Below are positions 52,918 through 53,176 of a stretch of 64,000 nt of DNA, in pieces (the first letter of the stretch is position 1; each line of letters begins with the position of its first letter). Under the pieces are notes generated by a model, which saw nothing but the letters and a program-made list of their open reading frames with translations, had not been told where the DNA came from and did no database searches. Position numbers and translations under genes: made by a program. The stretch is from Eledone cirrhosa (lineage: Eukaryota): NCBI GenBank assembly GCA_964016885.1, contig OZ024758.1, positions 14,570,001-14,634,000 on the forward strand, in the 5' to 3' direction.

Positions 52918-52974
52918 ATGGCAGATATGAATATTATTGCAGATGGTCGTGTTAAATACAGAGATGGCAAAAAG
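52918..52974 (+). CDS. DOK7: Docking protein 7-like, coding exon 1 (start of PH domain)
   Basis: MADMNIIADGRVKYRDGKK|GTAAAT versus recalled human MTEAALVEGQVKLRDGKK; phase-0 intron at the same position. Confidence 0.9.
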
Positions 52975-53130
52975 GTAAATTGTCGTAAAAGACAAACCAG
53001 ACTTTAATATTTTACTTCTAAGTTCCTTTTGTGAACAGTTATGGCGAAATTTCGATCTCTGTCGATATAGACAGAGTCAATAATATCTGCTTCGTATTGT
53101 TCTTTCACTTTCTTACTCATCTGTTTATAG

Positions 53131-53176
53131 TGGAAGTTACGATGGTGTGCCGTCAGAATGCCGTCTCCAGTCGCTG
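53131..53176 (+). CDS. DOK7: Docking protein 7-like, coding exon 2
   Basis: Pyrimidine tract-TTATAG|46 nt WKLRWCAVRMPSPVA(G)|GTAAGT versus recalled human WKSRWLVLRKPSPVA, exon c.55-100, also 46 nt. Confidence 0.92.

What the first reader, a model, noticed from the sequence alone, without database searches (positions are those of the whole stretch)
52918..53176. Invertebrate DOK7 orthologue hidden from the ORF track, with vertebrate-like exon structure
Seen: two short exons with canonical splice sites join to MADMNIIADGRVKYRDGKKWKLRWCAVRMPSPVA. Known (recalled): human Dok-7, the MuSK activator required for neuromuscular junction formation, begins MTEAALVEGQVKLRDGKKWKSRWLVLRKPSPVAD, with introns after c.54 and c.100. 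Both phases and the 46-nt exon length match. Inference: a probable cephalopod keeps a Dok-7 arm of MuSK/Ror-family signalling, which is little studied outside vertebrates.
Basis: partly seen in the sequence, partly recalled or inferred. Interest (0 to 1): 0.75.

Follow-up and report, generated by a model that had tools for sequence, protein, structure and literature searches.

The report
Octopod Dok-7 gene with long tail
These two short exons start an intact eight-exon Dok-7 gene in a probable octopod, an ordinary member of a family found across animals, whose protein likely docks on the MuSK receptor as at our nerve-muscle junctions and ends in a likely signalling module also kept by longer vertebrate forms.

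Summary
Confirmed, but not rare. Window 52918-52974 and 53131-53176 are exons 1-2 of an intact 8-exon gene (49 kb, 1543 codons, all introns GT-AG). Its PH-PTB head matches mouse Dok-7 at 8e-44 (next family member 2e-4), and platypus Dok-7 finds this locus first. Introns 1 and 3 map to the human positions given in papers. The genome also holds a MuSK orthologue whose docking motif is LDRL-xx-NQSY, plus rapsyn and NtA domains. The gene is not hidden: Octopus and Argonauta models exist as 'uncharacterized', and orthologues occur in molluscs, an annelid, a brachiopod, arthropods, amphioxus, a hemichordate and echinoderms; 11 invertebrate records are already named Dok-7. The added point is the 1330-residue tail. 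It has excess YxxM motifs and ends in a two-tyrosine, SHP2-type module shared with amphioxus and 140 of 162 vertebrate rows, but absent from 456-499 aa short forms. No RNA reads of this species were obtained. Binding to MuSK has only weak predicted support. Verdict: new member of a known family, modest interest.

The parts
52838..52874 (+). Two CCAAT boxes (52838, 52870) upstream of the start codon; likely the proximal promoter
   Evidence: Sequence; function inferred, start site not mapped
52918..52974 (+). Coding exon 1 (57 nt, codons 1-19, phase 0), start of the PH domain
   Evidence: identical to P0002 residues 1-19
52975..53130 (+). Intron 1, 156 nt, GT-AG; maps to human c.54
   Evidence: human c.54+25_55-38del in PMC13545678
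53131..53176 (+). Coding exon 2 (46 nt, phase 1)
53177..64000 (+). First 10.8 kb of intron 2 (37,912 nt in all; 24% simple repeats within the window). Exons 3-8 (231, 210, 117, 635, 2599 and 737 nt) lie beyond the window, between G000:C19:14661089 and 14671974: exon 3 ends the PH domain, exons 4-5 encode the PTB domain, exons 6-8 the tail with the C-terminal module in exon 8

Best explanation
This is the single, intact DOK7 orthologue of a probable octopod: a 1543-residue PH-PTB adaptor that likely binds the phosphorylated juxtamembrane tyrosine of the animal's MuSK receptor and would then act as a multi-site docking scaffold. Shown here: the gene structure, the orthology, the kept PTB arginines, a MuSK orthologue with a recognisable docking motif, and the tail motifs. 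Inferred from vertebrate Dok-7: the PH domain holds it at the membrane, the PTB domain grips MuSK pTyr (octopod LDRLPQNQSY versus vertebrate LDRLHPNPMY), and PH-PTB dimers would pair and activate two kinases. Inferred from motif rules (recalled): tail tyrosines, once phosphorylated, would recruit PI3K (YxxM), Grb2 (YxN), Crk (YDIP) and SHP2 (the C-terminal tyrosine pair). The tissue, and whether it clusters receptors at a neuromuscular junction, are not known.
For: Eight exons, 4632 nt, no internal stop, 83% identical to the Argonauta record and 97/100 in each of the first two blocks of 100. PDB search with that record: mouse Dok-7 3ML4 at 8e-44 over residues 7-212; the other 8 of 9 hits (DOK1/2/5, FRS2/3) at 2e-4 or worse, PTB region only. 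Reverse search with platypus Dok-7: the two best of 3 matches are exons 4 and 3 of this gene (4e-8, 1.4e-4); the third is at 0.8. Introns 1-4 map to c.54, c.100, c.331 and c.532 of a mammal-type sequence. Papers give human c.54 and c.331 exactly and bracket the other two. 10 of 11 human variant positions taken from three papers are identical, against 39% background. R158, R159 and R174 are kept as R162, R163 and R178. MuSK orthologue on C13 with Fz, kringle, membrane span and kinase on one strand; kinase best hit MuSK 6.5e-128, next TrkB 3.6e-86, ROR1 4.8e-81. Predicted complex: weak support, score 0.51, best of 3 controls 0.01, runs agree in at least 81% of contacts, partner pLDDT at least 55. 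The mark was reached by 51 of 78 solved and 2 of 108 mismatched pairs, but at 0.60 or under by only 5 of those 78 and by all 4 mismatches that passed (of 180). A like complex is solved (3ML4), so the pass may be from memory. Tail: 5 YxxM against 0.8 in shuffles, 10 YxN against 3.7, 2 SHP2-type against 0.04.
Against: The MuSK motif is N-Q-S-Y, not canonical N-P-x-Y, which may weaken or change PTB binding. YxxP motifs are not in excess (3 against 3.4), and none could be aligned to the vertebrate Crk sites Y396/Y406. The long tail looks more like IRS or Gab scaffolds, and UniRef names some orthologues 'chico' or 'insulin receptor substrate 1', so other receptors may be used. The complex was folded with the O. 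sinensis record, without phosphotyrosine and without an alignment. LRP4 was not searched. Both NtA hits may be non-agrin proteins, as they also touch NRG2_N. The tree held no vertebrate DOK1-6 and its bootstrap had not settled.
Confidence: 0.68

Rival explanations
1. It is a DOK7 orthologue by descent but works as a general IRS/Gab-like scaffold for other receptor tyrosine kinases (insulin receptor, Trk, Ror), with tight coupling to MuSK being a vertebrate specialisation.
For: The 1330-residue tail is rich in YxxM and YxN and ends in an SHP2-type tyrosine pair. The octopod MuSK site lacks the proline of NPxY. Annelid and amphioxus orthologues carry 18 and 14 YxxM.
Against: The MuSK juxtamembrane keeps LDRL, N, Y and RM around the site in both lineages. 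Dok-7 disease positions are kept far above background. The genome has separate FRS2-like, DOK-like and IRS-like PTB genes.
Confidence: 0.27
2. The two exons are chance splice-like sequence, a pseudogene, or the start of a PH protein of another family.
For: Only that exon 1 alone finds nothing in the PDB and scores E 0.44 in the large protein search, as expected for 19 codons.
Against: Complete stop-free 8-exon frame, reciprocal best hits, shared intron positions, and a second region of homology at the C-terminus. An unnamed 1273-residue relative read from a contig of at most 4057 nt runs through the exon 1-7 junctions.
Confidence: 0.02

Closest known systems
Vertebrate Dok-7 (mouse PH-PTB, PDB 3ML4; human DOK7)
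   Same: N-terminal PH plus IRS-type PTB (about 39% identity), PTB arginines, intron positions 1-4, single copy, MuSK partner with a similar juxtamembrane site.
   Different: 1543 residues against about 500 for the usual mammalian form (504 recalled; platypus record 456). It has YxxM and YxN motifs and a C-terminal module that the short forms lack; the Crk sites Y396/Y406 cannot be aligned; the partner motif is NQSY.
Long vertebrate Dok-7 forms (shark, sturgeon, lungfish, Xenopus, Anolis records of 650-1150 aa; NCBI 'dok7b' and isoform X1)
   Same: Same head and the same C-terminal module (YVNI, then LxY, then YAxID followed by a conserved helix-like stretch); shark and sturgeon forms also have 3-4 YxxM.
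   Different: The middle of the tail shows no clear likeness beyond isolated motifs; it was not aligned in detail.
Cephalopod and other invertebrate database records (O. sinensis LOC115218370, O. bimaculoides LOC106869711, Argonauta GAB1598049.1; 'Protein Dok-7' in Mactra, Mizuhopecten, Biomphalaria, Elysia, Lingula, Lygus, Argiope)
   Same: Same gene: 83% identity to the Argonauta record over the whole length.
   Different: The cephalopod records are labelled 'uncharacterized'; no functional study was found in the paper searches.
IRS/chico, Gab/Dos and FRS2 docking proteins
   Same: Works like them in the tail: many tyrosine motifs and a terminal SHP2-type pair (motif rules recalled); this genome's FRS2-like gene ends in a similar pair.
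   Different: The head is Dok-7, not IRS or FRS2; the Dok-7 C-terminal profile scores the FRS2-like protein at only 1.2 bits.

Membership tests
DOK7 | N-terminal PH domain followed by an IRS-type PTB domain | tested here: met
   Pfam IRS 132-203 over the cut-off; PH by continuous alignment to 3ML4 over residues 7-212. Pfam PH itself did not hit P0002.
DOK7 | Closer to Dok-7 than to DOK1-6, IRS or FRS2, in both directions | tested here: met
   8e-44 against 2e-4 or worse; platypus Dok-7 finds this locus first
DOK7 | Groups with vertebrate Dok-7 in a tree | tested here: inconclusive
   PTB-only tree of 35 rows: three of the genome's four other PTB fragments sit apart on a long branch (96/91), but the IRS-like fragment (49% filled) fell next to amphioxus, the bootstrap had not settled, and no vertebrate DOK1-6 rows were included
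DOK7 | Shared intron positions in the PH-PTB region | tested here: met
   Mapped to c.54, c.100, c.331, c.532. c.54 and c.331 are stated in papers; c.100 lies between c.98 (exon 2) and c.134 (exon 3), c.532 between c.511 (exon 4) and c.539 (exon 5). The exact c.100, c.532 and c.652 are recalled.
DOK7 | Phosphotyrosine-binding arginines of the PTB domain | tested here: met
   R158/R159/R174 kept as R162/R163/R178; their role is recalled, as the structure paper was not held
DOK7 | C-terminal YxxP sites for Crk/CrkL (Y396, Y406) | tested here: inconclusive
   YD[IV]P near residue 298 is kept in 10 of 10 bivalve and gastropod rows and 3 of 3 cephalopod-type rows printed, but there is no positional alignment to the vertebrate sites and no excess of YxxP
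DOK7 | Binds phosphorylated MuSK juxtamembrane and activates the kinase | tested here: inconclusive
   Partner present. Predicted complex weak: 0.51, best control 0.01; at 0.60 or under only 5 of 78 solved pairs and all 4 passing mismatches of 180; a like complex is solved. Activation cannot be tested here.
DOK7 | Acts in muscle to cluster acetylcholine receptors | not testable with these tools
   No expression or functional data obtained
MuSK (partner gene, G000:C13 about 10.769-10.805 Mb, minus strand) | Frizzled-type domain, kringle, membrane span and MuSK-type kinase | tested here: met
   Ig domains were not located and the exons were not joined
MuSK (partner gene) | Juxtamembrane NPxY | tested here: not met
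   Reads NQSY; flanks LDRL and RM are kept
IRS/chico | IRS-type PH-PTB head | tested here: not met
   No IRS chain among the 9 PDB hits at E up to 1
FRS2 | N-terminal myristoylation glycine and PTB without PH | tested here: not met
   Starts Met-Ala and has a PH domain; a separate FRS2-like gene lies on C10 (label from recalled likeness)

The most novel reading that the evidence does not exclude
Ancestral Dok-7 was a large IRS/Gab-like scaffold ending in a two-tyrosine SHP2-binding module. That module survives from octopods to long vertebrate isoforms, and the 504-residue human Dok-7 on which neuromuscular work rests is a shortened splice form that lacks it. Dok-7 itself would then bring Shp2 to MuSK, an ancient MuSK-Dok-7 pair would predate the vertebrate neuromuscular junction, and variants in the extra 3' exons of human DOK7 could matter in congenital myasthenia.
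Probability: 0.3. Interest if true: 0.65.

Novelty: new member of a known kind. Interest (0 to 1): 0.33.

Why it matters
It indicates that the MuSK and Dok-7 genes are both older than vertebrates and can be studied together in invertebrates. That bears on a question still called open for non-vertebrate chordates in PMC12445529 (passage). The orthologue itself is routine and already sits in databases. The more useful lead is the C-terminal module shared by octopod, amphioxus and long vertebrate forms: conservation over that distance points to a function that work on the short mammalian form would miss, and it can be tested directly.

Tried and rejected
RNA: no RNA holder listed. Of two runs laid on exons 1-2, X4 gave no contig and X1 gave one unspliced contig over 52760-53272. 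A lay over the downstream exons gave no result, so splicing and expression in this species stay open. Exon 1 alone against the PDB: 0 hits. The kinase pattern search gave 13 matches against 7 for its control; only one (L060) was MuSK-like, L061 was another kinase, and the rest were repeats or short frames. Rapsyn exon against the PDB: 0 hits; its label rests on Pfam. Earlier scan notes: nothing by sequence, words or place. Paper searches for invertebrate Dok-7: 18 listed, none on it by title or abstract start; two opened at passages; 0; 0; none of 30 listed of 1,995 holds 'dok7'. A search for a long isoform with Shp2 gave 3 reviews. The library lacks most subscription papers; Bergamin 2010, Hallock 2010 and one further DOK7 paper were not held; no supplements were opened. 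Rejected: pseudogene or chance exons; IRS, FRS2 or DOK1-6 identity; cephalopod-specific retention. No Drosophila, nematode, tunicate or cnidarian name was seen, but only 10 of the unnamed rows among the 150 listed were looked up, so this is no evidence of absence.

Full report
Observation. The sequence shows an ATG at 52918, a 57-nt exon ending in a GT donor after 52974, a 156-nt intron with a pyrimidine tract and AG at 53130, and a 46-nt exon ending in a GT donor after 53176. The window is G000:C19:14570001-14634000 of a 3.0-Gb genome, and the stretch has one match there. A search of the large protein collection with the exon-1 frame returned 1 of 1 candidates, a 1544-residue Argonauta hians record (P0002, E 0.44).

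The whole gene. P0002 matched nine places in the genome; eight lie in order on the plus strand of C19 and start at the two exons. Boundaries set by hand give eight exons of 57, 46, 231, 210, 117, 635, 2599 and 737 nt; exons 3-8 lie beyond the window, between C19:14661089 and 14671974. All introns are GT-AG, intron 2 is 37.9 kb, and the frame has 1543 codons with no internal stop. The model is 83% identical to P0002 overall and 97% in the first 200 columns. The host is inferred to be an octopod from these nearest records. The same gene is modelled as 'uncharacterized' in Octopus sinensis, O. bimaculoides and O. vulgaris.

Identity. Against solved structures P0002 hits mouse Dok-7 (3ML4) at 8e-44 across both PH and PTB. 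The other 8 of 9 hits are DOK1/2/5 and FRS2/3 at 2e-4 or worse. Platypus Dok-7 searched back into this genome gives exons 4 and 3 first and an FRS2-like gene at E 0.8. Introns 1-4 map to c.54, c.100, c.331 and c.532 of a mammal-type sequence. Passages of three papers give human c.54+25_55-38del (PMC13545678), c.331+1G>T as IVS3+1 (PMC6207248), and exon assignments that bracket c.100 and c.532 (PMC10256249). The exact c.100, c.532 and the fifth site (c.652, matching by hand count) are recalled. Of 11 human variant positions taken from PMC6966886, PMC10256249 and PMC13545678 (passages), 10 are identical in the model against 39% background (binomial p about 6e-4). A PTB-only tree places the model with Argonauta inside molluscs and apart from three of the genome's four other PTB fragments. 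It is rough: no vertebrate DOK1-6, unsettled bootstrap, one fragment misplaced.

Splicing. No reads of this species could be laid on the junction. Indirect support comes from unnamed assembled contigs. P0004 is a 1273-residue relative (79% identical in the head) on a contig of at most 4057 nt, and it reads through the exon 1-7 junctions. P0248 and P0249 (269 residues on 1177 nt) read through the exon 7-8 junction. These are best explained as spliced transcripts of related cephalopods, which is an inference.

Distribution. The head found 156 proteins among 331 candidates of similar length and 426 among 658 shorter ones (120 listed each). They include bivalves, gastropods, an annelid, a brachiopod, chelicerates, a copepod, many insect orders and vertebrates. 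Ten invertebrate rows there already carry the name Dok-7. A profile search gave 205 cluster representatives at E up to 1e-30. Ten divergent ones were looked up and included amphioxus, a hemichordate, three echinoderms and a sponge 'Dok-7-like' protein. So the gene is neither hidden nor peculiar to cephalopods.

Partner. A MuSK-type gene lies on C13: Fz, kringle, then a 426-codon frame with membrane span and kinase. Its kinase hits MuSK at 6.5e-128, ahead of TrkB (3.6e-86) and ROR1 (4.8e-81). The juxtamembrane reads LDRLPQNQSYHRM against vertebrate LDRLHPNPMYQRM, so the tyrosine equal to Tyr553 and its flanks are kept but the proline of NPxY is not. Reviews (passages of PMC6966886, PMC7744297, PMC6678492) state that Dok-7 binds pTyr553, dimerises and activates MuSK, that Y396/Y406 recruit Crk, and that Shp2 counterbalances MuSK. 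A predicted complex of the O. sinensis head with this juxtamembrane segment gave weak support: 0.51, best of 3 controls 0.01, contacts agreeing at 81% or more, partner pLDDT 55 or more. At 0.60 or under, only 5 of 78 solved pairs and all 4 passing mismatches (of 180) scored so, and a like complex is solved, so the pass may be from memory. A Rapsyn_N exon (C10) and two NtA exons (C6, C8) are present. LRP4 was not searched.

The tail. Residues 216-1543 hold 5 YxxM (0.8 in shuffles), 10 YxN (3.7), 3 YxxP (3.4, no excess) and 2 SHP2-type sites (0.04); the motif rules are recalled. The end of the protein is homologous to the end of long vertebrate Dok-7 forms. A profile of 13 vertebrate C-termini scores the model 25.1 bits, amphioxus 47.0, Owenia 40.8 and Limulus 28.2, against 5.5 for the best of 200 shuffled tails. 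It finds nothing in the four insect rows, the tick row or the hemichordate row, and nothing above 1 bit in the three echinoderm rows printed. The reverse profile of 13 protostome rows scores 8 of 8 long vertebrate-type rows at 24-38 bits, against 4.5 for the best of 400 shuffles, and misses the platypus (456 aa) and coelacanth (499 aa) short forms. Of 162 vertebrate-type rows (8 invertebrate rows dropped; 13 built the profile; biased to fish and amphibians), 140 carry the module at 40 bits or more. Four unnamed mammal-like rows do too, while six other mammal-like rows printed do not. A human transcript NM_001301071.2 has a codon 598 in exon 10 (PMC10256249), so a longer human form exists; whether it encodes the module was not tested.

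How it likely works. Shown: intact gene, Dok-7 head, kept pocket residues, a MuSK orthologue with a near-canonical site, a motif-rich tail. Inferred: membrane binding by PH, phospho-dependent docking on MuSK, dimer-driven activation, then recruitment of PI3K, Grb2, Crk and SHP2 through the tail (0.68). The main rival is a general scaffold for other receptor kinases (0.27). The tissue is unknown.

Novelty. This is a new member of a known family, already present in databases under uninformative names. The paper searches found no study of invertebrate Dok-7 or of the C-terminal module, but the library lacks most subscription journals. The orthologue claim alone is of low interest. The conserved terminal module missing from the usual short mammalian form is a testable lead and raises the score to 0.33.

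Noticed in passing
window 52907-52930 (+): An out-of-frame ATG in strong context (A at -3, G at +4) lies 11 nt before the Dok-7 start and opens a 7-codon frame that overlaps it; it could damp translation if it lies in the mRNA.
   Followed up: no
P0242 (O. bimaculoides XP_014771042.1), after residue 182: This record lacks 18 residues at the end of the PTB domain that the other octopod records have: alternative splicing or a model error.
   Followed up: no
L060:667-1944 (-), G000:C13: The MuSK membrane span, juxtamembrane and whole kinase lie in one open frame of 426 codons with no intron.
   Followed up: partly
model residues about 410-436 (exon 6): A helix-like stretch ending ITLLD resembles the vertebrate stretch ending RLSLL just after the PTB domain; likeness by eye only.
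   Followed up: partly
L003 (G000:C10) and L002 (G000:C20): Separate FRS2-like and DOK-like PTB genes; the FRS2-like one ends in its own pair of SHP2-type tyrosine motifs. Family labels are from recalled likeness.
   Followed up: partly
L078 (G000:C6) and L079 (G000:C8): Two NtA-domain exons, each after a signal-peptide-like stretch; which one is agrin was not settled.
   Followed up: partly
L052 (G000:C10): The rapsyn-like first exon carries a lysine-rich insertion after the Rapsyn_N region.
   Followed up: no
window 12684-13079 (-), 16966-17208 (+), 47404-47955 (-): Short frames that look like decayed LINE-type retroelement ends (recalled likeness); most other long frames in the window are microsatellite artefacts.
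   Followed up: no
L053-L054 (G000:C2) and L062-L065 (G000:C28): A related tandem satellite of about 48-nt units (16-residue repeats in translation) gives long open frames.
   Followed up: no
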